Positions 1,800-60,928 of a stretch of 64,000 nucleotides of DNA are shown piece by piece. The stretch lies in the NCBI GenBank assembly GCA_000004985.1, contig GG738885.1, one strand, 5' to 3'. Below the pieces are notes generated by a model. It did not search any database, was not told where the DNA came from, and saw only the letters and a program-made list of their open reading frames with translations. Within the stretch, counting starts at the first letter, position 1. Each line of letters opens with the position of its first letter. Position numbers and translations under genes: made by a program. The DNA is from Naegleria gruberi (Eukaryota).

Positions 1800-3050
1800 C
1801 TAATATTGTAGTTTTTCAAAAACTATCTTCATGTTTTGTGGTAAATCTAATTCAGGTTTGTTGAACCCCTTCGAATAAATTAGTTTTTCTAATTTTGGTA
1901 ATTTCAATAAAGATTCCAATCCAAACTGGTCTATTTCAGCATATTTGATGGAGAGTTCCTTAATGGACTCGAATTTAGAGAAATGTTCTGCTAATTCATT
2001 GGTAATACTAAACATTTTAAAGGTTTCCAATTGTTTAAACGTTTCAGGGTTCAACCTAGCGAGATTTTCCCCATATCCACCATCCTCAAATGAAAGCTCT
2101 TTCAATTGACTATTTTTGGAAATTGAATCCATCAAATAATCAGAAAAATCAGCATATGACAAGCTTAATCTCAATGTTTTGACATTCTCGCAAAATGGTA
2201 CTCCAAATCCTTCAATTCGTTCTCCATGCAAAGTAATCTTCTCTAAATGTTTCAACTTATTTATGGCTGCAAATGATTCAACAACTTGCTCACTTGTTGG
2301 ATCTTCTGTAATTTCACCTCTTATTAGATAAATAACGGAATATATCTCTTTAAGATTCTTCCAATTTTCAAATATTTCTGGCGCTGTAAAAATTGATGTT
2401 AATGACTTGTTTTTGAAATATTCTAATTGAGGAGTGTTTTTTGATATTTCAATAAAATGTTCAATTAATGAGCTTGAATCAATACAATCCAATGTCAATT
2501 TCTTCAAATTTCTACACTGTGCAATTAAAGAAGCCAAGCTGGAGAGACCATAATCACTATTAGAATAATAATCACATCTAATATAAATATTTTCCAAACT
2601 TGGAAATTTTTTCAATGCCCATTGAGAAACATATTCTGGAAGATAGTCACTAGATAACTGAATTGATTTAACCAAATCTGTATCCACATTTTTGAATGTT
2701 CTTTCCAAATTTTCAATTACTTTTTCTTTAGTATTATGTTTCTGGAGGTTTGGTTTCAAAATATTTGATTTTTCACCTTCTATCAAGTCAATTCTCTTTC
2801 CATCATTGGCACAAAGTTCAATATTTATCACTTGTCTTTCAAATGATTCTTCCACCCTCGTTTGGTCCCAACACAAATTCTTGAATAAGAAGCAAATATT
2901 TCCTGTTGGAAATCTTCCAAAATAATACTTGAAAAATGTTGAAGATTTTCTACTGCACAACTTGGCTTCAAATTCTAAATAGGACAAAATTTCCATTATG
3001 ATTTCTGATGGAAGCTGGTGATAGAGTTCACCACCATCATGTGTTGACAT
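1800..3050 (-). CDS. F-box-like / leucine-rich-repeat protein, 416 aa.
   Basis: Complete ORF. The N-terminal LPSEIIMEILSYLEFEAKL is an F-box-like motif. It is followed by irregular L-rich repeats (LKKLTLDCIDSSSLIEHFIEISKN...). Confidence 0.55.
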   Translation of the reverse strand: MSTHDGGELYHQLPSEIIMEILSYLEFEAKLCSRKSSTFFKYYFGRFPTGNICFLFKNLCWDQTRVEESFERQVINIELCANDGKRIDLIEGEKSNILKPNLQKHNTKEKVIENLERTFKNVDTDLVKSIQLSSDYLPEYVSQWALKKFPSLENIYIRCDYYSNSDYGLSSLASLIAQCRNLKKLTLDCIDSSSLIEHFIEISKNTPQLEYFKNKSLTSIFTAPEIFENWKNLKEIYSVIYLIRGEITEDPTSEQVVESFAAINKLKHLEKITLHGERIEGFGVPFCENVKTLRLSLSYADFSDYLMDSISKNSQLKELSFEDGGYGENLARLNPETFKQLETFKMFSITNELAEHFSKFESIKELSIKYAEIDQFGLESLLKLPKLEKLIYSKGFNKPELDLPQNMKIVFEKLQY

Positions 3051-11045: not shown

Positions 11046-13226
11046 ATGGAGCGTTTAAAATCCCTCTTTAAAAGCACACGAGAAGTAACTGATCTTCAAT
11101 CAAAACCAATAGAAGAATGGAGTGTAAAAGACTTTCAAGAATGGTTGAGAGAACATCAATATCAAAAGAAGGTTACACAGAGTAAGTGATTTTTAAAGTT
11201 TAATTATTCGAATATATAATGTTGTATGAAAGTTTTAAAAAAGGAAGAATGGAACGGAAAGTGTTTAATCGATTTTACAGAAGAAGATTTAAAAAAGCTA
11301 GGAATTCCAAGGTTTGTAATTTTATATAGCCTCCTTTCGAATAATTTTAATTTTTACTTTCTAATAACAATTTATTGATGTAATTTCTATTATTATCAAA
11401 ATTCGAATTGTACAATTATTATTATTATTAATATTATTTGGTGATGATGATTTTAATTTTGATGATTCTTTATTTCACATGTCAAAATTTCTTTTTAACA
11501 CTAAACACTTTTTACCAATTAATTGACAACATATATTAACACTTTTAATTGGTCTTTAAAACAGTGGTTCAGCTAAAGGTATAACCAATTCCATCAATCA
11601 ACTCAAACAAGAACAAATCAAAGCAGGACTTTTCCAACCATCAAGAGCATCCAATGCTTCACAACGTTTAGATAATAATTCCACATCAACTACAACCTCA
11701 ACAACAACAAACAATACTGATGATCCAAATAGTGCTGTTTCGAATAATCGTCAATCATCAGAATCGAATACTAGTACTGGTACAGCAACAACAGATTCAA
11801 CACAAAATGGTCATCAAGTGGTTCAATTGTTGGACAAATCAGAGGAGGAAGACAATTGTGAATCATCATCGGCAACAACAACTCAACAACGATCAAAGGG
11901 AGGTACTCTTTTTAATACATCATCTGGATCTGAAATGAATAGTACTTCTGGAGGATTAGCTAACGGAAGTGAAAGATATGTTGCTGCACCTCCATTTCTT
12001 GTTTCCTCTCTGACAGGTGAAGAAAAGAAGGATTATGACAAGTGTTTAAAGAAGGTTGAATTGGCTTGTCAAGATTATCCACCTTCTGTTCAAGCTACTA
12101 TTTGTCAAGATTGTATTTTCCCAGATAGATTTCAATATAGATATTTTAATCCACTGAGATTGTCAGATAAAGATAGACAAGTTAACAAAATGATGGAACC
12201 TTTCATTAAAGTTAAATTGGTCATTACTGAAATGGATACTGGTATGGCTCATAGATTATTGAGATTAATTGGTACAAGAATTCACAAAACTATCAAATCT
12301 ATGGATTACGGAATGTTTCACACTGCTCTCATTGTCGGTGTGTATTATGTTGAGGTATGTTGTTATTGTTTTTATTTTTATGGAACGTATTTGAATTTAC
12401 TTTCTAATTGAATGATAATATTATAATATCATCGTTACATAATATTTAATAATAATAATAATTATCTATCATCAATATGTTTGTGATGTGAATTCACATT
12501 TTGAAAAAGTGGGTCGATTCTTCACTGGTGACAGTTAGAAAGAAGAGTAGTAGCAAGGCAGTTTTTGCAACAGACATTGCAACAATTTCAGGACAAGAAA
12601 ATGTCGATAATGCTTTTAAAAATTTATCGGAATTGATTTGTACATGGAACAGAACACGTGACTATGATAACAAGTCATCAAATTGTCAACATTTTTGTAC
12701 TGAGGCAATTGAAAAACTTGGTTTAGCGTCAGCTTTTGATAAAATTGCAAATCAAGGACCACTGAAGGAATATCTCACAAGACTCAAAACCACAGGAGCA
12801 TGTGACATGTCATACAGAGTTAACGATGATGTTAAAGAAACATTATTGAATTCTGATAGTATAACTCCTGAATTGACTGAATTCTTGAAATCTTCTGGAA
12901 ATGCATTAACATTCCCTTCACACAAAATTCTCGATCAGTTCGTTCACATTTTACAAGAAGAAGATCCACTCTATTTTGAGAATGAACCATTCGATTATGT
13001 TTTACTGAAAGCTTACGACAGAGCTTTCTGGTTAAGAAGTCAATCAAAGGGAACCGGTGGCGTTGATACTTCACATTATTGGACAAATCCAAACACTGGT
13101 GCTTGCATGTGTCCATTCAACAAGAATGCAACCAATGTTGAAAATGAGGAAATTGTCAATTCAATCATTGGCAAAGATTTTGAACTTGGTTCTTATAGAC
13201 CTACTTATCCTGTGAGATTGGATTAA
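11046..13226 (+). CDS. SAM-domain protein with a C-terminal NlpC/P60-superfamily (LRAT/PPPDE-like) putative cysteine-peptidase/acyltransferase domain; 4 exons: 11046..11181, 11248..11311, 11565..12354, 12510..13226.
   Basis: Exons 1-2 give ...SVKDFQEWLREHQYQKKVTQ|KWNGKCLIDFTEEDLKKLGIPR, SAM-like. The donors are GTAAGT, GTTTGT and GTATGT. The acceptors are AAG, CAG and AAG. The joins link track ORFs 10992, 11818 and 12501 in frame. The C-terminal part has GMFHTALIVGVYYVEW...SSNCQHFCTEAIEKLG, the His...Cys (NCxHF) arrangement of permuted papain-like LRAT/PPPDE domains. Domain calls are from memory. Confidence 0.6.
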
Positions 13227-13398
13227 TATTTTGTTTCTTTCTAACTCTCTACATGTACAAAATAAATTTAAAAGCATTGTGTTCATAAATTTATTTATTT
13301 CTCTTCAATATTGACCAATACACATTCCAATACTTAATGTTCATAGTTCTTAAAGTTCTTAATATATTCCAGGAATATTGATTGTTAGATTGAAAAAA

Positions 13399-13632
13399 AT
13401 GTCCAACACTGATGATACTGATCATCATTACAAGCTTTTGATTGATAATATTCTTCATGATCGGAAGAAGTATCCATTCCTTGGTCATAATTTTGTTCGA
13501 TCTGCTCCGATTACAGAAGATGGAAGTGCCACTCATCATGATGATAAAAAGGATTTATCAATTCCTATTGGAGCATATGCTTTTCTATTGGATGAATTGG
13601 GTTCTTGGGAAGCAATTTATAAGAAATTGTAA
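13399..13632 (+). CDS. Small hypothetical ORF (77 aa from MSNTDD...).
   Basis: Short ORF in an otherwise empty 450-bp gap between genes. No motif recognised. Could be spurious. Confidence 0.2.
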   Translation: MSNTDDTDHHYKLLIDNILHDRKKYPFLGHNFVRSAPITEDGSATHHDDKKDLSIPIGAYAFLLDELGSWEAIYKKL

Positions 13633-13720: not shown

Positions 13721-16700
13721 ATGAATGAAGATGTTTGTCTTTTAAAGATTATTCCAACAGCAGAAGAAGTACAAAATGAAGATTGCATTGAAATTGGAGC
13801 TTCCAAATTTGGTGGTTGTCCTGATTTACCAGATTCTATCAATTGGCCACAAGGAATTGACTCAAATCCTGCCAAATTCATTGCTCAAATCAATTTGCAT
13901 GATTTGAGATTTTATCACAGTCCAAAAGGTGTTTTACCTCAAAAGGGATGGTTATTCTTTTTTGTTGGAGTGGACAATGCAAATCATTCACAAGATATGA
14001 AACAAGTATTTAGTTTTTATTGGAATGGATCAAGGGATGAAATGAAAAGAAGATTATCATCCACATTTGAAACTCCAACTCGATTGATTTTTGATGAAAA
14101 TTCTGAACAAGTGGAGAATGATTATCCAGATAGCTTTTCTTTTTATTCGAATCCAATTCAATTGTTTGGACATTCACTCTTTGTGACCTATCCAATCACT
14201 ACAATGCTATTGTATGCATCTGGTTATGTATTCTTTTTGGAAAGTGAAATTGAGGTAAGAAAGAGAAAGGGAATTCAATCCCTAATTAACAGATATGAAA
14301 GAAGGGGAACAACTGATTATATTTCACCAACGAATATTTCAATTCTATCACAAGAAGCATATGATAACAGTGGTCAAAGTAACACCTTCTTAACATTTGA
14401 TTCAACTGCGTTGATTTTTAAGAGATATAGCTCTGTATATCAGAGTAGAGTTACTGATTGGGATACAAATTCATTTCTGCCACCATTTGTTAAGAGGCAC
14501 GAACCAAGTAGAGAAAATGAACAGGAAACTGTTAAGTTTTGGAGAAGAAGTGAAATACTGACTCCTGGTCAAGTGATTTCACCTCCTAAAAAATTGATTA
14601 CTGCTAATTTTATAACAGAGGATCCGATCAAAACTTCAGTAGACGAATCTCTTCCTGATACAATTTTAAATAAGGACAAGTGTTTTAGAATTAGTTCTAT
14701 ACTAGCACCAGAAGAATGTGCAGCATTAAGAGTTGCATCTTTACCTTTCTATACTAATATCCAATCTGAATATCCGAAAGAATATAGAAATTGTGAGAGA
14801 GCTCTTTTAAAAAGTCAAAAGTTAGCCGACTTGTTGTGGGAACGAATTAAGCCATACCTCAATGAGAATGATTTTAAGAATGTGCTACCCTATGGTTTTG
14901 ATAATAATGGAGTGTGGAAACCAATGGAAATTAATCCGTGCTTTCGTTTTTCAGCTTACAAACCAGACACTTATTTCAAACCTCATAAGGATGCACAATT
15001 TGTTAGAAATGATAATGAAAAGAGCATTTTCACACTTCTTATTTATTTGAATGGAGTAAATCAAGGTGGTTCCACAACGTTCCTTCAAAAGATAAGAGAT
15101 CAAGAAGCTGAGGATGGATCTGGAATGACCTTTAGAGTTTTACATGATGAAAACCCTGAGGAAGGTTCTGTCATACTATTCAATCATGATCTCTATCATC
15201 AAGGTTCTGTTGTACGATATGAAAAGATTGTATTGAGAACTGAGATTATATTTAAGAGAGTTGATGCATTGAGTGTTCCTCGTTCTGACTATAGAAATAC
15301 AGAGGAATATGTCAAAGTTAGACAATTAATTGAGGAATCGAATGAACTGGAAAAGCAAGGAGATACCAAGCAATCTCTGTTGAAATACCTTCATGCATTG
15401 GATTTACAAACTAACATGTCTCCATCTCTTCAATGGTCAGATTTGAGTAAGAAGAGCAATGTAGAAAGATTACCTGAGGAAATTATTGGAATAATTTGCT
15501 CCTTCTTAACAAGTAGAGAAATTGCTAGACAAATGATTCCTCTCTCTATTTTATTGAACTCTTATTCTAGAAGTCCAATCATTTGGAAGGAGAAATATTA
15601 TCAAGAGTGGCATCATTCTTCGAATCCTGAAATTGAATACGAAGACAATAGTAATCTTGATGATTTGGTTGTTTACTTTAGTGATAATGGAATGCCAGTG
15701 GAATGTAATCGAAATGAAATAATTTACAATGAAAATTCTAAGGAATACAAGGATTGGTATGCAATGTTCATTTCAAGAAAGTATATGGATTTGTTCTGGT
15801 CTCCTGTTCTACTTGATCCAGGAACTTCTTCCTATCGTTATTCTCTACAAAATTCAGAGACTGCAGATAAGGATATTATGGTATGTGGTAAACCACATCA
15901 TCCACAGTAAGTTATTGAAATATTTTCCTAACTAAATTAATTAACAACTTTTCAGTTTCAATTTACCAGGATTTGGTATGTACGACATTCTTGCAGGGAG
16001 TAGAGCAGCAAACATTAGGAATTCACATTTGATATCTCGTCTTCCTCTTGTTGATGCTTGTGGAAGAATTGAAGATTATTTAAATTTCAAGACTTTCCTA
16101 TTTCAATTATATGAAAATGACTTGAACGTCAAATTTCAAACACATCCACTTGTGTTAGCTGTCCCATTTTCTTGGACAGAGAAAGATATTTTGATGGTTA
16201 AAAGAATAATTAATGAGCTTGGAATTCAGCTATCATGTCTAATAGACTCTTCCAAATTGATTGCTTACAATTATTCGAAACCTAATTGTATTTTATTGAA
16301 TATTTCAGCAAGTGGTACTGCTTGTGTACCAATCAGAAACTATGAGCCACTGAATGAAATGAAAATATTTGAGCCATTCAATGTTTCTTCCATTCCTCAT
16401 TCTATGAATTTTTGGGATAATATTTATGGAGCTCTCAGAGTAGTACTGATGGTGCCTCCAACCCCACTGGAACAATACGAAACAATGAAGGAAAAGTGGG
16501 AAGGTATCACTTATGGAACTAATTATGGAGTGGAGGTGAATTATAATCAACATGTATTTGAGGCAGAAACTTTACTTACTATTGGAAACCAATTGTTTGT
16601 TAATGCATTCAAAGTATTGAGAAAAACAATTAAATCTCTACAGATTAACAGTGATAGTATTGAGGATGTTTTAATTTGTGGCGGGTTTTCCTCAATACAC

Positions 16701-16880
16701 GGCATGAAAGATAGATTAACACGTGAAATTAGAGAAATCTATCCTAATCTCAATTTGGAATTCAAATCTGATGAAATGGAAGTTATTGGCGGTGCTAAAA
16801 TAATTTGTAACTTAGCAAAATTTAAACAACAACTTGAAGCGTTCCAATTAGACAACAATAAATTGCTTAATTTAAGTTGA
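13721..16880 (+). CDS. Large multidomain protein. N-terminal DUF1963-like region, then 2OG-Fe(II) oxygenase (prolyl-hydroxylase-like) domain, then F-box, joined through a proposed 49-nt intron (15907..15955) to a C-terminal actin/Hsp70-like (ASKHA) ATPase domain; about 1015 aa.
   Basis: Track ORFs 13721..15910 and 15978..16880 are in compatible frames. GTAAGT at 15907 and TTTTCAG at 15955 give an in-frame join ...GKPHHP-H-FNLPGFGMYDIL... with no stop. Only 67 bp separates the two ORFs, too little for an independent promoter. Motifs: GASKFGGCPDLPDSINWPQ (DUF1963-like), PHKD...LYHQGS...R (HxD...H...R oxygenase triad), LPEEIIGIICSFLTSREIARQM (F-box), RIINELGIQLSCLIDSSKLIAYNY / ISASGTACV / VLICGGFSSIHGMKDRLTREI (actin-Hsp70 fold phosphate and adenosine motifs). 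Confidence 0.5.
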
Positions 16881-16956: not shown

Positions 16957-19071
16957 TTAAGGGTTTACATCTGTTATGTGTTTCGTGTAGGATTGAACTG
17001 ATTCCCATTTTTTGTAAGTAGAGGTTTCTTGTAATCTCTTAAATGTATCAGATAGGTTTAGCAATAAATCAGGTCCTAAACAATCCCACAGTCTTTCGTA
17101 TCCTATTTGCCCATCTTTATCACAATCTTTCATCAAAGCATAAAACTCCTTCTTACAAACTGATGGAATATTCACTTCAAACTTGGAATAAGGTTGTATA
17201 AACTGACTTTCAATATCTTTCATGTCTGTTAACCTTACAACATTACTCTCCTTCAATGATTTCAAAATAATATATAATTCATAATTCTCTGAGCTAAACT
17301 CCTTCTGACAATATTCCTTAAAAATCTTCAATATTTCAGAATTTTCCAATTCAATTTCTAAACTTTCATTCTTTTTCACATTTCTATTGGCTATCATTTT
17401 GTATATCTCAATAATTAGAACATTCCCACCACTCAATAACGTAAAACTAAAACAAGCCAGAGTGTTGAATATTCCTGCCAAAATTTGAACAATATACGTA
17501 TTTGATGAATCTACTAACAAATTTTCTAAACCTGATGTAATAGCAATGATGACAGGAAGGATTAAAGTGAGAAGATCGACTCTAAGATAAAAAGGATCGT
17601 CATAGAAAAAGAATTTTCTCAAACCATCTCGAATAATAGATTTTCTTTGAGTAATGACATCATATATTACGCTCACTAATCCAATAATCCAGAGCAGGAT
17701 AAGTAAAACCAATATTACAACTGGTCTATAAATATCAGCCAATGACTTATCTTCATTAATGAAGAAAAATGTACTGACACAATTTACAATAATGGACAAG
17801 AAAAAAGTCATGACGACTGTCATTAGGAAACCACCTTTCTTAGAAGCCATCATTTTCAATAATTTCTCTCTTTTTGGGAATCTAACTATCAGAGAATATA
17901 GATTCCTCAAAAAATAAAATTGTGCAATTGTTGTAATATATATAAAAAACCACCAGATCATTACCAATAAGGAAACACTATACCAGAATCCAACACATGT
18001 CCTAGATAAACCCGTGAATGTTATCATTAGAGAAAATCCTAATAGTGAACAGTATGGCAATCCAATTCTTCTGATCATTGCAGGCTTTTTGTAAAGTTTC
18101 AATCCAAAGAACAAAACAAAGTAAGAAAATACAATCAAGAATTGAGGTATAATCCAATAATCTAGAACTGGAGAGAAATCCTCACCAAAGCAGCCACTTG
18201 TCTCACACATATAGCATGTTGAAGGCAAAAGTAAAGAGGAAATTGAATAGTACGAAAGATCTGTAAAATTTGAAGAGAATTTTCCAACTTGTTGAGAAAT
18301 TATAGAATAATTAGCACTTATTTGAGTTCTTCCTGTAACCCCTTGTATTATTAGAAGATCTGTTTGTGAAAAGTTTGAATATCCAGAAAGCCATCTAAAA
18401 TTTTGAGCATCTGATACGTCTGGACCATCTAAACATGAAGTTTGTTCATAATCAAATAAAGAACTGTCAAGTGTTAATGATTTGATTGTAGAAAATGAAT
18501 AAACTTCGTATGGAATCAGTGGAAAGGCCACAAAATCACTAGTTTCCATAAATTTACCATCTGTCATTTGTACATCCCTGTAAAATCTCACATAGAAGGA
18601 GAAAATATAAGGATCCAGTAAAATAGAATCATACTTTCGCATGTAATTTCTTCTCTGGCACATGTCTACGTGTAAATAAATGTTCGAGAAGGTTGATGTT
18701 GTAGATGAATCTCCTTTTGTAATAGGTATTTGATAAATACCAAAGAATTTGGTTAGGTACTTGGTAAATTCAGGTCTTGTGCCAACTGTCAGTTTGTTGT
18801 TTTTCAACCAATTCATAATAAAATTTCGTGTTTCATCGTGATTATTCATAGATGCAATAACAGTCTGTTCATTGGATGTGAATTTGTTTTTCCACACAAA
18901 GAGTATTAGAAAAGTTCTTACACCAACAATTGTATCTCCATTCTTGATAGAAGAAAGCAGTGAAGAAGTTTGAGCGTGGGTCACACCATTCTTTCTTTCA
19001 CATTGAACTATTGAACAAAACGTGATTAGAAGTATGATGAAATACACTAGTGTTTGTGTTGTTTTTTTCAT
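16957..19071 (-). CDS. Seven-transmembrane receptor-like protein with a C-terminal RGS (regulator of G-protein signalling) domain, 704 aa.
   Basis: Signal peptide MKKTTQTLVYFIILLITFCSIVQC. A ~330-aa N/S/T-rich ectodomain follows, then seven hydrophobic helices (FLIVFSYFVLFFGLKLY ... IVQILAGIFNTLACFSFTLL). The C-terminal FKEYCQKEFSSENYELYIIL...IESQFIQPYSKFEVNIP fits the RGS core (EFSEENLxFW ... EVNL). Confidence 0.7.
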   Translation of the reverse strand: MKKTTQTLVYFIILLITFCSIVQCERKNGVTHAQTSSLLSSIKNGDTIVGVRTFLILFVWKNKFTSNEQTVIASMNNHDETRNFIMNWLKNNKLTVGTRPEFTKYLTKFFGIYQIPITKGDSSTTSTFSNIYLHVDMCQRRNYMRKYDSILLDPYIFSFYVRFYRDVQMTDGKFMETSDFVAFPLIPYEVYSFSTIKSLTLDSSLFDYEQTSCLDGPDVSDAQNFRWLSGYSNFSQTDLLIIQGVTGRTQISANYSIISQQVGKFSSNFTDLSYYSISSLLLPSTCYMCETSGCFGEDFSPVLDYWIIPQFLIVFSYFVLFFGLKLYKKPAMIRRIGLPYCSLLGFSLMITFTGLSRTCVGFWYSVSLLVMIWWFFIYITTIAQFYFLRNLYSLIVRFPKREKLLKMMASKKGGFLMTVVMTFFLSIIVNCVSTFFFINEDKSLADIYRPVVILVLLILLWIIGLVSVIYDVITQRKSIIRDGLRKFFFYDDPFYLRVDLLTLILPVIIAITSGLENLLVDSSNTYIVQILAGIFNTLACFSFTLLSGGNVLIIEIYKMIANRNVKKNESLEIELENSEILKIFKEYCQKEFSSENYELYIILKSLKESNVVRLTDMKDIESQFIQPYSKFEVNIPSVCKKEFYALMKDCDKDGQIGYERLWDCLGPDLLLNLSDTFKRLQETSTYKKWESVQSYTKHITDVNP

Positions 19072-19233: not shown

Positions 19234-20713
19234 TTATTGATATTTAGCAAAAAGTAAACTCGAGTTTGTTCCGCCAAATCCAAACGAATTACATAAGGCA
19301 GCTCTCACATTAGTGTTGCATGATTGACCTTTAACAATTTGAATATTTGATTTTTCTATACCTGTCAAATCATCATCCAGAGTTTCAAAATTAAGAGTTG
19401 GTGGAATAGAGTTATTGTAAATTGAAAGAACAGTTCCCACAGATTCTACTGCACCTGCTGCTCCAAGCATGTGTCCAAGAGATCCTTTCATGCTATTCAC
19501 ATATACAGTTTGTCCACTTTCTGCGAACAGGGATTGGATAGCTTGCAACTCTACTTTATCACCTGCTGGGGTGCTTGTTGCATGACAATTTACATGGTCA
19601 ATATCATTCAAATTAATATCTACAATTGAATCATTCAAAGCATTCTTCATAGCTGTTATGGCTGCTCTACCATCTGGTGAAGGTGTAGTAGGGTGATAAG
19701 CATCAGCTGCTGTTCCATACCCAACAATTTCTGCGTAGATTCTTGCTCCTCTCTCTAAGGCGTGGTCCAATTCTTCCAAGACCAAACAACCTGCTCCTTC
19801 TGACATTACAAAACCATCTCTACTTTTATCAAATGGTCTACTCGATGTTTGTGGATCTGTAATACCAGACAATGCTCTTGCTCTTGCAAATCCAACATAG
19901 AATATTGGATAGTAAGAATTTTCACATCCTCCAGCAAGCATAATTTTACCTTGACCATATTTGATAAATTGGAATGCCTCTCCAATGCTATGAGCTCCTG
20001 TAGCACATGCAGTTGAGCAACTAACCATTGGACCTTGTAAATCGTGTTGCATAGCAATATAACCAGCTGCCATATTGTTCAAAATACGTGGATAAAATAC
20101 TGGGCTAACCTTTGTATGTTTCTGAATGATTTGCTTTCTAATGTTTTATATTACATTGGAAACTTACCAAGCTTTCAACCATTGTAAATGCTTCTCCAAT
20201 TTCAGCTGCAGCTCCAAGAGAAGAGCCCACAGAAACACCAATACTACTTCTATCTTTAATTGACTTGATATCCAATCCAGAATCGATAATAGCTTGATAA
20301 GCAGAAACCATACCAAATTGAATAAATTTTGATAATCTAGATTTTGTAATACTCTTATCTCTATTTGTTGATTCTGTAAATGCAAGACATTTTTCAATTG
20401 ATTGATCCAACTCTGATTGATCGATAAATCCACCAATACGATTTGAAATCTTACTCCAAATATTTTGTTCATTCTCAGTCATATTTTCGATTGGTACTGT
20501 TCTAATACCACACTTTAAAGAATTTAATTCACTCCACATCTTTTCAACAGAATTTCCGAGTGGAGAAACAACACCCAAGCCTGTAACAACAACTCTTTTA
20601 GGCTTTGGAATTTCCTTCTTTACATTAAATGAATACTTTCTATAGTGTGTATTATGAGCATTGATAAGTTTAAATGATATTGATTTTCTATTCATCATTT
20701 TACTATTGAACAT
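19234..20713 (-). CDS. Beta-ketoacyl-[acyl-carrier-protein] synthase (KAS I/II family, mitochondrial-type), 2 exons: 20168..20713 and 19234..20109 (minus strand); about 473 aa.
   Basis: Has KRVVVTGLGVVSPLG and ...AAAEIGEAFTMVESL|VSPVFYPRILNNMAAGYIAMQHDLQGPMVSCSTACATGAHSIGEAFQFIKYGQ... with the active-site Cys in CSTAC, plus HATSTPAGD, GHMLGAAGAVE and NSFGFGGTNSSL (His-His-Lys region). The intron 20110..20167 has GTAAGT and AAAG on the minus strand, with an in-frame join. The N-terminal basic leader MFNSKMMNRKSISFKLINAHNTHYRKYSF looks like a mitochondrial presequence. Confidence 0.85.
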
Positions 20714-30391: not shown

Positions 30392-31378
30392 ATGAGTCAA
30401 GATATAGAGCCTTCTGCCAATGATCTTTCTGTTTCGAATAGATTTGAAATAGTCTTTTCTGACGATGCACTTTTTGAAATTCTTTCTTTCCATGATGATT
30501 TTAAATTTATTGTAATGAATTGTGCACTTGTTTCAACACAGTGGATGAATGTCATTAGGGAAAGAGTAAAACTACTTTCACTAACATGTTCTAATGCAAA
30601 ATTGTGGAATTTCCAAACAAGGAAACTTGAATTTTTACCAAATATTACAACTCTAACCGTTAAGAGGACAGTAAAATATAGTTTTTATTATGAACCTCTC
30701 AAAACAATGAACCAATTAACTAGTCTCAATATTAATGGACATTTTTTTTGTAAACATGGAATTCCACAACTTTGGAGAATTATTGATGAATTTAAACAAT
30801 TAACTAATTTGAATATTGGAAACAATATTATTGGAGATATAGGAGTTGCTCGTATTAGTGAAATGAAACAATTGACTAGTCTGAATGTTTGTAATAATGA
30901 TTTTAGTCAAGAAGGTGTTAAATCTATTAGTGGATTGAACCAATTAACACAACTAAATATAGTAAACAATAGAATTGGCTCAGAAGGAGTCAACCTTATT
31001 TGTGGGATGGTTCAATTGACCTCCCTTAATATTGCAACCAATTATATTGGTTTTGAGGGAGCTAAATTAATTAGTACTAGAATGAAACAATTGACAATTC
31101 TCGATATTTACAATAATAATATTGGACAAGAAGGAGCAGAATTCATTAGTAAAATGAATCAATTAACAAAACTAAATATTGGAAAGAATAATATAGGTCA
31201 GCAGGGAGCCAAGTATATAAGTGAAATGAAACAATTAACCACTCTCAACATTAGTCGTAGTCATATTGGTAGAAAGGGAGAAAAATACATTAGAGAAATG
31301 AGACATTTAACTTTTCTTGATTTGGGAATTCCCAAAAAGATTTCATCCAAATCAAAAAACTACCAAACCATGTTGTGA
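30392..31378 (+). CDS. Leucine-rich-repeat protein (RNI-like 24-28-aa repeats) with an F-box-like N-terminus, 328 aa.
   Basis: At least nine repeats of the form MKQLTSLNIxNNNIGxEGAKxIS, plus an N-terminal FEILSFHDDFKFIVMNCALVSTQWMNVIRERV. Confidence 0.6.
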   Translation: MSQDIEPSANDLSVSNRFEIVFSDDALFEILSFHDDFKFIVMNCALVSTQWMNVIRERVKLLSLTCSNAKLWNFQTRKLEFLPNITTLTVKRTVKYSFYYEPLKTMNQLTSLNINGHFFCKHGIPQLWRIIDEFKQLTNLNIGNNIIGDIGVARISEMKQLTSLNVCNNDFSQEGVKSISGLNQLTQLNIVNNRIGSEGVNLICGMVQLTSLNIATNYIGFEGAKLISTRMKQLTILDIYNNNIGQEGAEFISKMNQLTKLNIGKNNIGQQGAKYISEMKQLTTLNISRSHIGRKGEKYIREMRHLTFLDLGIPKKISSKSKNYQTML

Positions 31379-31516: not shown

Positions 31517-34500
31517 ATGTTTTCTTGTTTCTTTCATGATATTTGCATCAAACTAGTTGTTGATCAACAAGATAATAGTTTGACTGAAGAAACATCATCT
31601 TCAATAATGGTTGTTGATTGTTTCTCTCTATTACAAGATCATTATCGGAATGTTATTTCAAAACTACTAGAAAGAAATGAATATATTCATGTTCATCATT
31701 TAAATCAATTATTCGCTTTTGAACGATACAGTGTTAGAAAAATTAATTCCTTCCTCTCTCCAACTGAACATCCATTCCTCGATAATGATTCAACTCTTGT
31801 TTTTATAAAGGTTTTGAAATTTAGGGGAGATTTATTGACATTTGCATCGGAAAGAATTAAAAGTGATGAAACAATGGTTATGATGGCAATAAAGAATAGA
31901 TTGTCATCATTGGAATGTATTGGTGAAAAATTGAAACAAGATAGAAAATTTGTAAAGAAGGCAATTAAATTGGCAAAACGTGTTGTCAATCCTTTACAAT
32001 ATTTTAAAGATTTTCAAGATGATGAAGAAATTTGCAAAATGGCAGTCAAGTGTAAAGGAAGTTCTTATGAGAGTGTATCTGATAGATTAAAGAATGATGA
32101 AACTATTATACAAGATGCACTTTCATCTGCTGGATCTAGTATTCAACATGTTCCACATCATTTAATTAATAGAGAGCTAGTTTTGTTGGCACTTAAATCA
32201 GCTCCATTTTGTTTCCAATTCATTCCACCAGAATATAAGAATGATAATGAATTGATATTAATTACTGCTAAAAATAATCCATATATATTGAAACAATTAC
32301 CAAATCTGTTGAATGAAAGATCATTTGTATTGGAGTTGGTTAAATTAAATGGAGTTTGTATTCAATTTTTATCAGAGGAATTAAAGAATGACAGAGAAAT
32401 TGCTATAGAGGCCACAAAAGAAAAATTCAACTCAGGATTTAGGTTTTTAAGTGATGAATTTAGAAAAGAAAGAGAGTTGGCTTTGATGGCTGTAAAATCA
32501 GATTTTTATAATCTGAAGCACGTTTCCAATGAATTGCAACAAGATAAGGAATTTGTGAGAATTTGTATTAAATCCAAGACAGATTTAACAAGTTACATGG
32601 CTAATGATACTTATGATTCAATTAGAATTAATGATAGGGAATTTTTATTTGAAATTATAGAAAAATTTTATAATTATTCAGAATATAAGTTGTATTTGAG
32701 TAGCGGTAAGGAGATTGTTGAGAGATTTTTAAAAGTGGATCCAAATTGCTTTCAGTGTTTTGATTTACTTCATAATGAAAGAAGTATTGTAATGGAGCTG
32801 ATACCACACAGTATTGATATTTTGAAACTTTCATCAGTGGAATTAAGGAATGATAGAGAAATTATTAGAAAGGCCATTTGTTTTCATGATGGAGCTTTGG
32901 AATTTGCATCAAATGTTTTGCAAAACGAAAGAGAAATTGTATTAGAGGCAATTTATTACAATTCAACAAATTACAAATATGCTTCCGAAGAATTGAGGAA
33001 TGATAGAGAAATATTAGAATACGTTCTTGTAAGAAACGGTAATTTGATTGCCTATGCATCCGAAACTTTACGAAACGATAAGAATTTGGTAATGCTAGCC
33101 CTTAAAAATTCCACGCAAAATATCTCAAAATATATCGGATACAAACTAAAGCGAGATAGAGAAGTAGTTTTAGAATGTGCTAAGAGATATCCATGCCTTG
33201 ATGTAATTTCCTTAGATTTCAGATTTGATAGAGAAATAGTTTCACAAGTTATTCAAAAATATGGAGAGGAATTTAAATTTGCTTGCGAATCTATTCGCAA
33301 TGACAAGAATTTGGAATTAATTGCCCTTACTAATGGATTATCTCTGAAATATATCAAATCTCAACAAGATAGAGAACTAGTAATGTACTCTGTAAAATAT
33401 TCTGGAGAAAATCTTCAATATGTAAATGAAGAATTCAAAAATGATGAAGATATTACTTTAATAGCTATGGAAACATCCAATGGAAATGCGTTAGAATTTG
33501 CGAGTGAAAGATTTAAATCTGATAAGGATTTAATTAGGAAATACATCAAAACAAATGAACATGTACTCAAATATGTTTCACAGAATTTACTTTCTGGTAG
33601 GAAGTTTATTAAGGAAATGTTATCAATTAATGGACTTGCATTACAATTTCTTCCCAATAGGATGAGAAGAGACAGAGAGATTGTGTTGCACGCCATTAAA
33701 TCAAATGGAGATGCCCTTCCATTTGCACTTGGGGGTTTAACTAAGGATTGCGAATTACGCACAATTGCATTTTCAAATGGATTGAAATTTAAAGCACGTT
33801 TTGGCTTCGATGATCTAAACAAGGAATTGATATTGGATATTGTAAAAACAAATCCAAAAATGCTGAATATAATTTTAGCTATGAAAAAAGAATTTAGGAA
33901 CGATCCAGATATTATTCAAAGTGCTGTAAAAATAGATTTGGAATATTTGGACTATTGTGCAACTTATGGAAAATTGAAAACGGATCGAAATTTTATTTTA
34001 CAACTCGAAACAAATGAATTTAATTTGATGAAAATTCCATACAAATTTAGAAGTGATAGAGAAATTGTTTTAAAGTCATTGAAAAGTTATGGAAAATCAA
34101 TCATGTACATTTCTAGTGATGAATTGAAAAAGGAAATTTCACAAGATCGAAATATTTTATTGGAATCCATTCAAAGTTGTGATGGTTTCATATTTTTATT
34201 TGCAAGTAATGAATTACAACAAGATGAAACATTTATTGAAGAATGTATTTCCAAAAATGGAATGGTTTTAAGATTTTTATCTGAAAAATATAGAAATAAT
34301 ATATCACTACTCATGAAAGCAGTTGAAAATAATGAAAATTCGTTGAAATTTGCTTCCAATAATTTATTAACAAATAAGGAATTGATATTACATGCTGTGA
34401 AACATTTTCCAAATTCTTTAAAATATGCCAGTTATGAATTGAGGGACGATAAAGATATAGTGATGGAAGCTATTCGAATAGATCCTAAATCAATCAAGCA

Positions 34501-34534
34501 TGCTTCTATTGAATTACAACAGACTTTACAATAA
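31517..34534 (+). CDS. Large repeat protein built from ~25 tandem DUF4116-like ~36-aa repeats, about 1005 aa; start uncertain.
   Basis: The periodic motif xLKNDREIVLEAIKxNGxALEFASEELRNDKEIxL recurs through the ORF. Every repeat unit has [LF]xxD[RK][ED] then a hydrophobic core. This matches my memory of the DUF4116 repeat family of protists and bacteria. The track ORF begins with a TTG-type start, so the real N-terminus may differ. Confidence 0.55.
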   Translation: MFSCFFHDICIKLVVDQQDNSLTEETSSSIMVVDCFSLLQDHYRNVISKLLERNEYIHVHHLNQLFAFERYSVRKINSFLSPTEHPFLDNDSTLVFIKVLKFRGDLLTFASERIKSDETMVMMAIKNRLSSLECIGEKLKQDRKFVKKAIKLAKRVVNPLQYFKDFQDDEEICKMAVKCKGSSYESVSDRLKNDETIIQDALSSAGSSIQHVPHHLINRELVLLALKSAPFCFQFIPPEYKNDNELILITAKNNPYILKQLPNLLNERSFVLELVKLNGVCIQFLSEELKNDREIAIEATKEKFNSGFRFLSDEFRKERELALMAVKSDFYNLKHVSNELQQDKEFVRICIKSKTDLTSYMANDTYDSIRINDREFLFEIIEKFYNYSEYKLYLSSGKEIVERFLKVDPNCFQCFDLLHNERSIVMELIPHSIDILKLSSVELRNDREIIRKAICFHDGALEFASNVLQNEREIVLEAIYYNSTNYKYASEELRNDREILEYVLVRNGNLIAYASETLRNDKNLVMLALKNSTQNISKYIGYKLKRDREVVLECAKRYPCLDVISLDFRFDREIVSQVIQKYGEEFKFACESIRNDKNLELIALTNGLSLKYIKSQQDRELVMYSVKYSGENLQYVNEEFKNDEDITLIAMETSNGNALEFASERFKSDKDLIRKYIKTNEHVLKYVSQNLLSGRKFIKEMLSINGLALQFLPNRMRRDREIVLHAIKSNGDALPFALGGLTKDCELRTIAFSNGLKFKARFGFDDLNKELILDIVKTNPKMLNIILAMKKEFRNDPDIIQSAVKIDLEYLDYCATYGKLKTDRNFILQLETNEFNLMKIPYKFRSDREIVLKSLKSYGKSIMYISSDELKKEISQDRNILLESIQSCDGFIFLFASNELQQDETFIEECISKNGMVLRFLSEKYRNNISLLMKAVENNENSLKFASNNLLTNKELILHAVKHFPNSLKYASYELRDDKDIVMEAIRIDPKSIKHASIELQQTLQ

Positions 34535-57639: not shown

Positions 57640-59079
57640 TTAATGTTTTCTTGGTGATTGTCTTATAAAAGATAATTGAGATGAAGATCCAAGTCTTGGT
57701 GAAGTTCCTAATCTTGTTGTTGCGTATGGATCAGTAATGGTTGGATTTACTTGACTCAATCTCTCTGCAAAACTTGAACCCATCAAATTTGAATGAGTTG
57801 GAAGAGAAGATGATAAACCATCATCTAATTGACGTGGACTTGGAATTGGAATACATGTTGGTTTTGGTGAAAAGCTTGACTTTCTCTGTGGTGAAGTATA
57901 ATCAGTTGTTCCTCTCGGAGTTGTAGATCCTCTGAGTGGGCTTGATGAAGGATTCAAATTGTTAACAGCAACTCCTGGAATATTAACTGGTGGTTGAGAT
58001 GAAGGTGGAAGAGAGTGAGATCTTCTACTTCTTTCAATTAAATCTTCAGCTGATCCTGTTGGTATCAACTTTGATTTAATATTTTGATTAAATTCTCTTT
58101 CAGATGAAATTTCCAAATCAAATTCATCTTGCATCTTTTGTGAATCCATTTCTTTTCTCTTTTCCATTTCACGTTTAATCTTTTGTTCTAAAATAAAGTT
58201 TTCACTTTCCAATCTTGAGTATTCCTTTAATAATTTCAAATTCTTTTGTCTATAATTATCACCATCAGAAGCTAATCTCTTTTGTTCCTTGTTAAGAATT
58301 TCAACTTGTTCACTCAATTTTTGTACAATATCAGTCTTATTTTCATTGTTGAGATTTTGTAAAATATTTTGAACTCCTTGCAAAACTTCACTTCTTTCCT
58401 TTTCAATTTGTTTTTCAATTTCACTATTATAATAATAATATATTAAATAATATTTTAAATCATTTAATATTTAAATAATAATAACAACTTACTATTTTTC
58501 ACTCAAAACAGATTCTAATTGTTTTCTCAATTGAGTAACAATATATTCCTTATCTTGTTTTAATTTACTTTCAATAAAAATTTTTTCTTGTTGAACCTTT
58601 TCAAGTTTCTTTTGTAAAGTATTTGTTAACAATTCTTCTTCTTCTTCAACTTGTTTAACAAGTGTTTCTTTTTCCTTCTTTAATCGATTTAATTTCTTCA
58701 TCAATTTATTTGTTATTAATTCTTCTTCCTCTTCAACTTGTAATTGCTTTTAATATTTGTTATTATTATTATGATGATGATGATTATTGTTATTGTAATA
58801 TATAAGAGTAATAATAATAATAATAATACGGAATATATTATCATCATGTTAAGAAAATAAATAACAATATAAAATACATACAAGGTTAGTATTTGCATTT
58901 TGTAATTTTTCAATCTTTGATTTTAATTTAATATTATCATTTTCTAAATCTTTAATACGTTGTTTATATTGTTCAATCTCCGATAGTGGTATTGTTATAT
59001 TAACAACACTACTACTAGTAGTAGTAGTAGAAGTAGTAGCAGTATGCATATTATTACTTGTTTCTTGTTGTTGTTGCAT
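57640..59079 (-). CDS. CCDC6-like coiled-coil protein, 3 exons: complement(join(57640..58423, 58493..58746, 58882..59079)); about 411 aa.
   Basis: Exon 2 encodes ...QVEEEEELITNKLMKKLNRLKKEKETLVKQVEEEEELLTNTLQKKLEKVQQEKIFIESKLKQDKEYIVTQLRKQLESVLSEK. Exon 3 encodes ...ENFILEQKIKREMEKRKEMDSQKMQDEFDLEISSEREFNQ then an S/P-rich tail. This parallels CCDC6 (..EEEFLTNELSRKL.QL..EK..LE..LEQEQEF.VNKL.KK...; ENLRLQRKLQREMERRE..ESSLEMDDERYFNE; P/S-rich C-terminus). Introns: GTATGT...AAAAG and GTAAGT...TAATAG, joins in frame. Confidence 0.55.
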
Positions 59080-59426
59080 TTTTTAATAGGTTAGGTCCTA
59101 ACCTTTAAAATCAACAAAGCCTAATGAGAGGAGTAATCAAAGAGAGAATCTCTCTTTTGTTAATCGATGTGTTGTAATATTACAATACATCATGTACACA
59201 GTTAAAGTGTGTTAGATCAGAGGTCATAACATCAAGCTTGTTATATTATTATATAATTTAACAAGTGTGAAAGGGTCTTTTAATGGTAAAAAAACAATTA
59301 TTAATTTTAAAAATAATATTTCAAGTCAATCGGAAGTGCATAAGCGAATGATCGTGTTGATAATTACAAAATCGGATTTAGGAACGATTAAAAAATCTAT
59401 TTTCAACGTCTATGTTGTCGTGTTAT

Positions 59427-60821: not shown

Positions 60822-60928
60822 TGTAATAACTGTTTGTCTTAATAAATTACTAATCTTGACATTGGTATTTTCAATATGTGTTTGATATTGTACAGTTTTA
60901 GAAAGTAAATGTGGATTAACATCAATAC

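What the first reader, a model, noticed from the sequence alone, without database searches (positions are those of the whole stretch)
13721..16880. Predicted fusion protein: DUF1963-like + 2OG-Fe(II) oxygenase + F-box + actin/Hsp70-fold ATPase, linked by a 49-nt intron
Two adjacent long ORFs are separated by 67 bp and joined in frame by consensus GTAAGT...TTTTCAG splice sites. The resulting architecture combines a prolyl-hydroxylase-like oxygenase (HxD...H triad), an SCF-adaptor F-box, and a divergent ASKHA ATPase domain. I do not recognise this combination. It could link oxygen-dependent hydroxylation to SCF-type ubiquitin ligases, which fits alongside other F-box genes in this window.
Basis: inference. 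Interest (0 to 1): 0.55.

Follow-up and report, generated by a model that had tools for sequence, protein, structure and literature searches.

The report
Prolyl-hydroxylase, F-box, actin-like fusion gene
The two reading frames are one real spliced gene from an unidentified AT-rich protist, encoding an oxygen-dependent prolyl-hydroxylase-type enzyme joined to an F-box and a complete but probably non-hydrolysing actin-like domain. It belongs to a widespread, unstudied eukaryotic protein family and has an extra DUF1963/TYPP-like head seen only in this lineage.

Summary
ORF 13721-15910 and ORF 15978-16880 are joined in frame by a 49-nt GTAAGT...TTTTCAG intron (15907-15955), giving a 1036-aa protein.

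**Evidence for the splice**
- It rebuilds an invariant HPHF motif.
- The actin-fold domain starts in exon 1 and ends in exon 2.
- A related metagenome contig (L005, 74% nt identity) has an unrelated 47-nt GT...AG intron at the same codon and phase.

**Domains**
- N-terminal half of DUF1963/TYPP: Pfam 1e-13.
- F-box: weak in this protein alone, clear for the family.
- Full actin fold: family profile against actin gives 1e-33. The catalytic residues are substituted.

**Distribution**
The P4H, F-box and actin-like core is not unique. It occurs in Naegleria (at least 5 paralogues in N. lovaniensis), Willaertia, dictyostelids, Physarum, testate and other amoebae, chytrid fungi and a centrohelid. 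All are annotated as hypothetical. Only the window lineage adds the DUF1963-like head.

**Likely function (inferred)**
A Skp1-docked, O2-dependent protein hydroxylase. Its closest studied analogue is Dictyostelium JcdI/Fbxo13.

**Verdict**
New variant of a known kind, moderate interest.

The parts
13721..15906 (+). Exon 1: start codon to the last two bases (CA) of the His729 codon. Encodes residues 1-728 plus 2/3 of a codon.
   Evidence: Continuous ORF. Spliced translation. 88-nt AT-rich spacer to the upstream ORF's stop.
15907..15955 (+). 49-nt phase-2 spliceosomal intron, GTAAGT...TTTTCAG, GC 20%. Read through, it gives a stop at 15908-15910.
   Evidence: L005 has an intron at the same position and phase with unrelated sequence (47 nt). 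L004 has the identical intron.
15928..15932 (+). CTAAC branch-point-like motif inside the intron (CCTAACTAAAT). The N. fowleri orthologue's nearby intron has GTTAACTAAAT.
   Evidence: Read directly from the sequences. This is an inference.
15956..16880 (+). Exon 2: third base of His729 through the stop codon (16878-16880). Encodes residues 729-1036.
   Evidence: tblastn of the spliced protein back to the window.
13802..14068 (+). DUF1963 / TYPP (YwqG-family)-like region, residues 28-116. Has the first-repeat GGxP motif (SKFGGCPDLP..WP) and FIAQINL...GWLFFF. The second repeat was not detected.
   Evidence: Pfam PF09234 at 1.3e-13 / 8.3e-15, profile positions 1-94 of 216. Motif shared with P0159. 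dN/dS 0.38 against L005. Domain definition from PMC4275035.
14537..15304 (+). Prolyl-4-hydroxylase-type 2OG/Fe(II) dioxygenase domain, residues 273-528 (N-terminal beta extension plus DSBH core). The Pfam core is residues 409-503 = 14945-15229.
14984..14992 (+). Fe(II)-binding His422-x-Asp424.
   Evidence: Invariant in alignments of 5, 48 and 62 sequences.
15197..15226 (+). Distal Fe(II) ligand His493 (15197-15199) and the basic residue Lys502 (15224-15226), placed +9 like the 2OG C5-carboxylate binder of P4Hs/PHDs.
   Evidence: Invariant. The role of K502 is inferred from its position relative to known P4Hs (own knowledge).
15305..15460 (+). Conserved two-helix linker (residues 529-580, ...ESNELEKQGD...YL.A..LQ...) between the oxygenase and the F-box.
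   Evidence: Helices 528-545 and 549-566 at high pLDDT. Lowest dN/dS, 0.08. Present in many family members.
15461..15616 (+). F-box, residues 581-632 (LPEEIIGIICSFLTSREIARQMIPLSILLNSYSRSPIIWKEKY).
   Evidence: Family profile against the PDB: FBXL5 9.7e-4, Cdc4 1.7e-3, and further F-box proteins including KDM2B and FBXO3 at E 0.18-1.6, individually non-significant. Pfam F-box-like in 5 of 5 close relatives; the window alone scores 0.02 / 15.1 bits. 47 of 62 distant members match. Helices 586-633 at pLDDT 83-93.
15800..15904 (+). Start of the actin-fold domain (residues 694-728: first strands and phosphate-1 loop VLLDPGTS), encoded in exon 1.
   Evidence: Pfam Actin match starts at residue 695. 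Motif alignment.
15957..16844 (+). Remainder of the actin-fold domain (residues 730-1025), encoded in exon 2.
   Evidence: Pfam Actin 1e-9. Family profile aligns to actin residues 4-365 at 1.2e-33. GG adenosine motif is kept. D154->N, Q137->S, H161->C.

Best explanation
**Shown.** The locus is one two-exon gene for a 1036-aa cytosolic multidomain protein. It has a DUF1963/TYPP-like N-terminal module, a prolyl-4-hydroxylase-type Fe(II)/2-oxoglutarate dioxygenase with a complete and invariant active site, a conserved helical linker, an F-box, and a full actin-fold domain whose hydrolysis residues are substituted. It belongs to a conserved but uncharacterised eukaryotic family with the core architecture P4H, F-box, actin-like. 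The DUF1963-like head is a lineage-specific addition.

**Inferred mechanism.**
- The F-box docks the protein on Skp1, and so potentially into an SCF ubiquitin ligase.
- The oxygenase uses O2 and 2OG to hydroxylate a protein side chain, most likely proline.
- The actin-like domain, and in this lineage the TYPP-like domain, act as non-enzymatic partner- or substrate-binding modules.

Oxygen-dependent hydroxylation would then be physically coupled to a Skp1/SCF platform. That coupling could mark substrates for ubiquitination, or it could place the enzyme's own abundance under SCF control, as described for the JmjC F-box protein JcdI/Fbxo13.
For: **Gene structure.**. Homologues are uninterrupted across the junction. 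L005 has an orthologous intron at the same codon and phase with diverged sequence. Against L005, all segments are under purifying selection, dN/dS 0.08-0.41.

**Domains.**
- Pfam.
- PDB profile hits.
- AF2 model with pLDDT above 90 over residues 273-632.
- Foldseek top 50 dominated by P4Hs and PHDs, including Dictyostelium PhyA 6T8M.

**Active site.** H422, D424, H493 and K502 are invariant in 48-62 sequences drawn from distinct 50%-identity clusters.

**Family breadth.**
- 263 representatives at E<=1e-30.
- Of 62 long members, 62 have 2OG-FeII_Oxy_3, 47 F-box-like and 32 Actin.
- Named sources are Naegleria, Willaertia, Tieghemostelium, Dictyostelium purpureum, Cavenderia, Physarum, Arcella, Pyxidicula, Dracoamoeba, Nowakowskiella, Rhizophlyctis and Pterocystis.

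**Precedents.**
- JcdI/Fbxo13 binds Skp1 through its F-box and is an O2-limited dioxygenase (PMC9485057).
- The TYPP domain is proposed to mediate protein-protein interactions or act as a chaperone (PMC4275035).
Against: - There is no transcript evidence and no biochemical evidence.
- The window protein's own F-box scores below Pfam's gathering threshold (15.1 against 24.3 bits). Skp1 binding is assumed from family-level similarity.
- The substrate is unknown. P4H-fold enzymes also hydroxylate other residues.
- The actin-like domain may still bind nucleotide: the D.G and GG motifs are kept.
- Only half of the DUF1963 profile is matched, and that part of the model has low confidence.
- The L005 copy carries a 7-nt deletion removing the R506 region. 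This is either an assembly error or a sign that a copy can decay.
- F-box proteins do not always act in SCF complexes.
Confidence: 0.6

Rival explanations
1. There are two independent genes. ORF1 encodes a DUF1963, oxygenase and F-box protein ending at 15910. ORF2 is translated from ATG 15978 as a separate 300-aa actin-like protein. The GT...AG pair is coincidental.
For: A metagenome gene caller did call ORF2 alone, as P0015. The motif pair by itself occurs by chance in 19 of 100 shuffles. No RNA data are available.
Against: - The actin fold would be cut after its first about 35 residues, with the phosphate-1 loop left in ORF1.
- All homologues are continuous through HPHF.
- Conserved residues FNLPGFG lie upstream of the ATG.
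- L005 keeps a GT...AG intron at the same codon and phase while its sequence diverged.
Confidence: 0.03
2. The protein is a free-standing O2-sensing hydroxylase. Its F-box serves mainly to regulate the enzyme itself through Skp1-dependent solubility or turnover, as reported for JcdI. It does not deliver substrates to an SCF ligase.
For: In JcdI/Fbxo13 the biological effect of overexpression needed the dioxygenase activity but not the F-box, and Skp1 association correlated with lower JcdI levels (PMC9485057). Some F-box proteins without a classical receptor domain may themselves be substrates (same paper).
Against: The family keeps a large, conserved C-terminal actin-fold domain in the position where substrate-receptor domains sit in F-box proteins. 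Nothing tested here discriminates between the two readings.
Confidence: 0.25
3. The actin-like domain targets the enzyme to actin or Arp-containing assemblies (cytoskeleton or nuclear remodellers), and actin-family proteins are the hydroxylation substrates.
For: The complete actin fold is retained. PHD3 was reported to hydroxylate non-muscle actin prolines (PMC4161513). The family is concentrated in amoeboid or flagellate protists and zoosporic fungi with dynamic actin.
Against: The PHD3-actin claim is contested: recombinant PHDs were inactive on reported non-HIF substrates (PMC6739866). No interface conservation was tested here. Polymerisation competence is unknown.
Confidence: 0.12
4. The oxygenase is a catalytically dead scaffold (pseudoenzyme), and the protein is simply an F-box adaptor.
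For: The actin-like domain has clearly lost hydrolysis residues, so domain decay does occur in this protein.
Against: HxD...H...K is invariant across 48-62 divergent members. The oxygenase has nearly the lowest dN/dS in the gene, 0.12.
Confidence: 0.04

Closest known systems
Dictyostelium JcdI/Fbxo13 (and JcdH): F-box plus JmjC non-haem dioxygenase (PMC9485057)
   Same: Protist F-box protein carrying an Fe(II)/2OG dioxygenase. Conserved across many protists. [quoted passage not shown] It is the best functional analogy.
   Different: The dioxygenase is JmjC/JMJD6-type, not P4H-type. The F-box lies N-terminal to the catalytic domain. It has no actin-fold or TYPP domain. There is no sequence relationship beyond the F-box and the general DSBH fold.
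Animal KDM2A/KDM2B (FBXL11/FBXL10): JmjC demethylase plus F-box plus LRR
   Same: 2OG oxygenase and F-box in one polypeptide. The KDM2B F-box appears among the PDB matches of the family F-box profile, but only weakly (E 0.2, individually non-significant).
   Different: JmjC chemistry on histone lysines. CXXC/PHD/LRR partner domains. Chromatin role. (Own knowledge for the architecture.)
Cytoplasmic prolyl 4-hydroxylases PhyA (Skp1 hydroxylase of Dictyostelium/Toxoplasma), PHD2/EGLN, bacterial PPHD, algal and viral P4Hs
   Different: These are single-domain or differently extended enzymes without an F-box or actin domain. Sequence identity is only 13-23%. The substrate of the present family is unknown.
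Arabidopsis ARP8, an actin-related protein with an N-terminal F-box (Kandasamy et al. 2008, cited as ref. 20 in PMC8066076; paper not held)
   Same: F-box directly followed by an actin-fold domain.
   Different: No oxygenase domain. Plant-specific, nucleolar. Homology between its F-box and Arp module and this family was not tested here.
YwqG/DUF1963 family of the TYPP superfamily (TSR4, PDCD2, PDCD2L) (PMC4275035)
   Same: The N-terminal residues 28-116 match the first repeat, including the GGxP motif.
   Different: The second repeat and its conserved Gln were not detected. No close homologue was found. Fusion to an oxygenase, F-box and actin core was not seen in any of 152 family representatives.

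Membership tests
Fe(II)/2OG dioxygenase, prolyl-4-hydroxylase-like (Pfam 2OG-FeII_Oxy_3) | Profile match above the curated threshold | tested here: met
   PF13640, 30.0 bits against a cut-off of 27, E 1.1e-6. 62 of 62 family members match.
Fe(II)/2OG dioxygenase, prolyl-4-hydroxylase-like (Pfam 2OG-FeII_Oxy_3) | HxD...H facial triad plus a basic 2OG-binding residue | tested here: met
   H422, D424, H493 and K502 are invariant in 48- and 62-sequence alignments.
Fe(II)/2OG dioxygenase, prolyl-4-hydroxylase-like (Pfam 2OG-FeII_Oxy_3) | Double-stranded beta-helix fold closest to P4H/PHD enzymes | tested here: met
Fe(II)/2OG dioxygenase, prolyl-4-hydroxylase-like (Pfam 2OG-FeII_Oxy_3) | O2- and 2OG-dependent hydroxylation of a peptidyl proline | not testable with these tools
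   Needs an enzyme assay and substrate identification.
F-box protein (SCF substrate receptor) | F-box motif recognised by curated profiles | tested here: inconclusive
   The window protein alone scores 15.1 bits against a cut-off of 24.3, E 0.02. All 5 close homologues match (best 5.9e-8). 47 of 62 distant members match. The family profile hits the FBXL5 and Cdc4 F-boxes at about 1e-3. So the test is met for the family and sub-threshold for this member.
F-box protein (SCF substrate receptor) | Three-helix F-box fold | tested here: met
   Helices 586-594, 598-605, 610-616 and 619-633 at pLDDT 83-93.
F-box protein (SCF substrate receptor) | Direct binding to Skp1, assembly with Cul1 | not testable with these tools
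   Needs co-expression and pull-down, or complex prediction with the organism's Skp1 (not in the window).
Actin / actin-related protein family | Profile match above threshold and alignment over all four subdomains | tested here: met
   PF00022, 38 bits against a cut-off of 27. The family profile aligns to actin residues 4-365, E 1.2e-33.
Actin / actin-related protein family | Nucleotide-binding and hydrolysis residues (D11/G13, Q137, D154/G156/D157, H161, G301-G302) | tested here: not met
   D.G and GG are kept, but D154->N, Q137->S and H161->C. The phosphate-2 loop is degenerate and varies across the family. The fold is actin-like, but an actin-type ATPase is not supported.
DUF1963 / TYPP (YwqG family) | Profile match above threshold | tested here: met
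   PF09234, 52-56 bits against a cut-off of 23.
DUF1963 / TYPP (YwqG family) | Two tandem beta repeats, each with a GGxP-like motif, and the conserved pocket Gln of repeat 2 (PMC4275035) | tested here: not met
   Only profile positions 1-94 of 216 align. The first GGxP (GGCP) is present. The second repeat and Gln are not detectable. There is no PDB hit, and the model is low-confidence there.
Spliceosomal intron | GT-AG boundaries, frame restoration, conserved flanking exons with diverged intron in an orthologue | tested here: met
Spliceosomal intron | Junction observed in RNA | not testable with these tools
   No transcript data. The organism is absent from the searchable collections.

The most novel reading that the evidence does not exclude
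The family is a single-polypeptide oxygen-sensing degradation device. The P4H domain writes a hydroxyproline mark on a client held by the actin-like domain (and, in this lineage, the TYPP domain). The covalently linked F-box brings Skp1/Cul1 to ubiquitinate that client. This would merge the roles that animals split between PHD and VHL. It would represent an ancient eukaryotic O2-to-proteolysis pathway, present in Discoba, Amoebozoa, chytrid fungi and centrohelids, that is independent of HIF and of Skp1 glycosylation.
Probability: 0.15. Interest if true: 0.8.

Novelty: new variant of a known kind. Interest (0 to 1): 0.5.

Why it matters
F-box proteins carrying a dioxygenase are rare. The one studied in protists, JcdI, behaves as an oxygen sensor. 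The only known link between prolyl hydroxylation and SCF ligases in protists acts on Skp1 itself. This locus belongs to a broadly conserved family that hard-wires a prolyl-hydroxylase-type enzyme to an F-box and an actin-fold module. The family has multiplied in Naegleria, yet no description of it turned up in the literature searches made here.

If the inferred mechanism holds, it is a second, direct route from O2/2OG availability to ubiquitin-dependent proteolysis. It occurs in free-living and pathogenic amoebae (including N. fowleri), slime moulds and zoosporic fungi. It could be tested genetically in Dictyostelium-group species or N. gruberi.

The result also corrects an annotation. The N. 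fowleri gene model skips the F-box because of a frameshift.

Tried and rejected
- I used ORF1 and the exon-2 frame as separate alignment rows instead.
- **First AF2 run.** N. lovaniensis P0001 with a 6-sequence alignment gave pLDDT 48.7 and was not used for fold searches.
- **Wasted homologue search.** The search for homologous proteins with the 62-sequence alignment returned only the first sequence, because of the word-index cap.
- **Tool failures.**
  - A 98-sequence alignment failed internally.
  - The afdb50 fold library was unavailable.
- **DUF1963 head.** It gave no PDB sequence hit and only one weak homologue. Its completeness and origin stay unresolved.
- **Organism identity.** Exact-product look-ups for two window ORFs found nothing. 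The N. gruberi product was also not on record.
- **Scripts.** My first exon-mapping script failed. I replaced it with ungapped tblastn.
- **DUF1963 in the orthologues.** I looked for a DUF1963 coding region upstream of the Naegleria and Willaertia orthologues and found none.
- **Paralogues in the window.** None were found.
- **Alternative acceptors.** In-frame acceptors at 16003 and 16018 were considered. I rejected them because they would delete conserved residues.
- **Literature.**
  - Searches for a described P4H, F-box and actin family found nothing relevant.
  - The Dictyostelium actinome paper does not mention such a protein.
  - The JcdI paper's text and its held supplement do not list one.
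Full report
**1. The observation**

The window is AT-rich (about 31% GC) and eukaryotic. It has compact intergenic spacers and short introns. ORF1 (13721-15910, 729 aa) and ORF2 (15978-16880, 300 aa) lie 67 bp apart on the + strand.

GTAAGT starts at 15907 and TTTTCAG ends at 15955. Removing these 49 nt (20% GC against 33-34% in the flanks) joins CA|T into a His codon and yields a 1036-aa protein. The motif pair alone is not statistically remarkable: one or more occur in 19 of 100 shuffles. The case for the splice rests on context:

- The spliced junction reads KPHHPH|FNLPGFGMYD. The four homologues first found have uninterrupted ...P-x-HPHF(Y)L..YG.DD... there. P725, H727, P728, H729 and F730 are invariant, and H729 is the split codon.
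- The Pfam Actin match begins at residue 695, inside exon 1. Without splicing, the actin fold would be cut after its phosphate-1 loop.
- Conserved residues precede ORF2's first ATG.
- A beta-ketoacyl-ACP synthase gene in the same window is split by a 46-nt GTAAGT...CAG intron (20167..20122, minus strand), and splicing it restores a continuous enzyme.
- Two contigs from one ENA metagenome assembly (ERZ929261) provide a comparative test:
  - L004 is 99% identical to window 15592-16852 and has the identical intron.
  - L005 is 74% identical over window 13810-16834.
  - In L005 the flanks are conserved (CATCCACA / TTTCAATTTACCAGG) around a 47-nt GTATGT...ATATAG intron of unrelated sequence, at the same codon and phase.

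This pattern is what a real intron leaves. Alternative in-frame acceptors at 16003 and 16018 would delete conserved residues.

**2. What the protein is**

*DUF1963-like head.* Pfam on the spliced product gives DUF1963 at residues 28-116, E 1.3e-13. Only profile positions 1-94 of 216 are matched, and this holds when the N-terminus is scanned alone. The first GGxP motif (SKFGGCPDLP...WP) and the FIAQINL...GWLFFF strand pair are present. The second repeat and its conserved Gln, which define the TYPP domain in PMC4275035, were not found. There is no PDB sequence hit and only one weak database relative. That part of the model has low confidence because the alignment has no depth there. 'DUF1963-like' is the right description.

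*Oxygenase.* Pfam gives 2OG-FeII_Oxy_3 at residues 409-503 (1.1e-6, above the gathering score). An AlphaFold2 model of ORF1 built on a 48-sequence family alignment has pLDDT about 90-97 over residues 273-632.
- Foldseek against the PDB returns mainly prolyl 4-hydroxylases and PHDs. These include PBCV-1 vCPH (1.7e-9), Pseudomonas PPHD, Chlamydomonas P4H, B. anthracis P4H, Dictyostelium PhyA (6T8M, 1.5e-7) and PHD2.
- H422-x-D424, H493 and K502 are invariant in alignments of 48 and 62 sequences drawn from distinct 50%-identity clusters.

*F-box.* The window protein alone scores only 15.1 bits on Pfam F-box-like, against a cut-off of 24.3. All five close relatives match, the best at 5.9e-8. A five-sequence profile hits the F-boxes of FBXL5 (9.7e-4) and Cdc4 (1.7e-3). 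Several further F-box proteins (FBXW12, KDM2B, FBXO3, FBXL2) follow at E 0.18-1.6, which is individually non-significant. 47 of 62 distant members match F-box-like. The modelled helices are confident.

*Actin-like domain.* Pfam gives Actin at 1e-9. The family profile aligns to actin residues 4-365 at E about 1e-33, so the whole fold is present. The D.G phosphate-1 and GG adenosine motifs are kept. The D154, Q137 and H161 equivalents are N, S and C, and the phosphate-2 loop varies across the family. It is an Arp-like domain that is unlikely to hydrolyse ATP as actin does.

**3. It is a family, not a one-off**

The first word-indexed search found only four homologues: Naegleria lovaniensis, N. 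gruberi, N. fowleri and Willaertia magna. They are 33-36% identical and lack the DUF1963 part.

A full HMMER scan of 1.84 billion cluster representatives found 5166 hits at E<=1e-3 and 263 at E<=1e-30. The weaker hits probably include ordinary oxygenases and actins. Many of the best 150 are 600-1100 aa.

Of 62 long ones, all have 2OG-FeII_Oxy_3, 47 have F-box-like, 39 have F-box and 32 have Actin at E<=0.01. N-terminal extras vary: Rhodanese, NADAR, Macro, ankyrin, FYVE and RanBP zinc finger.

Named sources:
- Heterolobosea: N. lovaniensis, with P0005, P0006, P0007 and P0011 as paralogues in addition to P0001.
- Dictyostelids: Tieghemostelium lacteum, Dictyostelium purpureum, Cavenderia fasciculata.
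- Other Amoebozoa: Physarum polycephalum, Arcella, Pyxidicula, Dracoamoeba.
- Chytrid fungi: Nowakowskiella, Rhizophlyctis rosea.
- Centrohelid: Pterocystis.

All are labelled hypothetical, 'F-box domain-containing' or 'Fe2OG dioxygenase domain-containing'.

None of the 152 representatives carries DUF1963, and no DUF1963 coding sequence lies upstream of the Naegleria or Willaertia genes. L005 does carry the DUF1963-like head.

Comparing the window with L005 gives dN/dS as follows:

| Segment | dN/dS |
|---|---|
| DUF1963-like | 0.38 |
| Linker | 0.31 |
| Oxygenase | 0.12 |
| Helical linker | 0.08 |
| F-box | 0.24 |
| Actin-like | 0.24 |

The head is therefore a conserved, lineage-specific addition to a conserved core.

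**4. Source organism**

The source organism is not in the searchable collections. Three things point to an amoeboflagellate, probably a heterolobosean outside Naegleria and Willaertia. This is an inference.
- The closest homologues are heterolobosean.
- The window encodes an [FeFe]-hydrogenase, a 20-repeat DUF4116 protein, an RGS-domain protein with apparent membrane-spanning segments, and an axonemal-type dynein heavy chain.
- The genome is compact, with short introns.

**5. How it most likely works**

*Shown:* the gene structure, the domain identities, the intact oxygenase active site, the degenerate actin catalytic residues, family conservation and purifying selection.

*Inferred:* the F-box docks on Skp1. 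The P4H-type domain hydroxylates a protein residue using O2 and 2OG. The actin-like domain, and here the TYPP-like domain, bind partners or substrates. The TYPP superfamily has been proposed to be a peptide-binding, chaperone-like module (PMC4275035).

The closest studied analogue is Dictyostelium JcdI/Fbxo13. It is an F-box protein with a JmjC dioxygenase that binds Skp1 through its F-box. It has a Km(O2) near 22%. Its level is tied to Skp1 modification by the prolyl hydroxylase PhyA (PMC9485057).

Two readings remain open. The enzyme may mark clients for SCF-dependent ubiquitination, or the F-box may mainly regulate the enzyme itself. A third possibility is that actin-family proteins are the clients. 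It rests on a contested precedent: PMC4161513 reported PHD3 acting on actin, while PMC6739866 found recombinant PHDs inactive on reported non-HIF substrates. A catalytically dead scaffold is unlikely, given the invariant ligands and low dN/dS.

**6. Comparison with known systems**
- 2OG oxygenase plus F-box is known, but with JmjC enzymes: JcdI/JcdH, and KDM2A/B (own knowledge for the latter).
- F-box plus Arp is known from plant ARP8. I know this only from its title, cited in PMC8066076. The paper itself was not held, and homology to this family was not tested.
- P4H acting on the SCF system is known from PhyA acting on Skp1.
- A P4H-type oxygenase, an F-box and a full actin fold in one chain did not turn up as a described family in four literature searches, the actinome paper or the JcdI paper.

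**7. Verdict**

The protein is a new member of a conserved but uncharacterised family, with a lineage-specific TYPP-like addition. Overall it is a new variant of a known kind, namely F-box proteins carrying a dioxygenase. Interest is moderate, 0.5. The architecture is already visible in databases, but it is functionally unexplored. It suggests a direct and testable coupling of oxygen-dependent hydroxylation to Skp1/SCF in several protist and fungal lineages.

Noticed in passing
L003 7131-7284 (N. fowleri locus of P0004): The public N. fowleri gene model removes the F-box through a 154-nt 'intron'. The DNA still encodes ...LPEEIFATIFSYLTVQDVVK... in another frame. A frameshift (assembly error or real) was annotated around, so the deposited protein lacks its F-box.
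   Followed up: partly
L001 7708-7789; L002 about 7781; L003 7726-7787; window 15907-15955: Orthologues each have one intron within the same 13-codon stretch, but at three different positions. Willaertia has T|PNHPHF (phase 0, 82 nt). The window and L005 have HPH(CA|T)F (phase 2). Naegleria has QYG|F/YDD. This suggests intron sliding or repeated gain at the start of the actin domain.
   Followed up: partly
L005 about 1441-1444 (equivalent to window about 15230-15245): The related metagenome copy has a 7-nt deletion that shifts frame exactly at LRTEIIF and removes the invariant R506 region. The rest of the gene remains open and conserved. Assembly error and recent pseudogenisation cannot be told apart.
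   Followed up: partly
window 19234-20713 (-): Beta-ketoacyl-ACP synthase gene split by a 46-nt GTAAGT...CAG intron (20167..20122). I used it as an internal example of this genome's introns.
   Followed up: yes
window 44058-57604 (+): Dynein heavy chain (DHC_N1/N2, AAA modules, stalk, Dynein_C), read as two ORFs of 3287 and 1228 aa that overlap by 4 nt at 53918-53921. The cause is a frameshift, a tiny intron or a sequencing error. The gene implies a flagellate stage.
   Followed up: partly
window 35463-37409 (+): [FeFe]-hydrogenase with N-terminal ferredoxin-type clusters (Fe_hyd_lg_C, 7.9e-84), sitting in the locally GC-richest segment (38.6%).
   Followed up: no
window 31517-34534 (+): 1005-aa protein made of about 20 tandem DUF4116 repeats (E 2e-186). 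It is preceded by an LRR protein at 30392-31378.
   Followed up: no
window 1800-3050 (-): The only other F-box candidate found in the window.
   Followed up: partly
window 16957-19071 (-): Convergent neighbour: a 704-aa protein with a C-terminal RGS domain (3e-6) and apparent membrane-spanning segments. Its stop codon lies only 77 nt from the stop of the gene under study.
   Followed up: no
window 11818-13632 (+): Three consecutive ORF pieces (11818-12411, 12501-13226, 13378-13632) with no Pfam match. They are probably one multi-exon gene of unknown function, ending 88 nt upstream of the start codon at 13721.
   Followed up: no
window 58001-64000: GC falls to 23-27% with strong AT and GC skew swings, unlike the rest of the window. 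The ORFs there have no convincing domain matches.
   Followed up: no
P0059 (Dictyostelium purpureum, 2127 aa): A family member extended at its C-terminus by more than 1300 residues. By eye this looks like a lipase-like region followed by a P-loop/TPR-like region. It was not analysed. Accessory domains also vary widely at the N-terminus across the family (Rhodanese, NADAR, Macro, Ank, FYVE).
   Followed up: no
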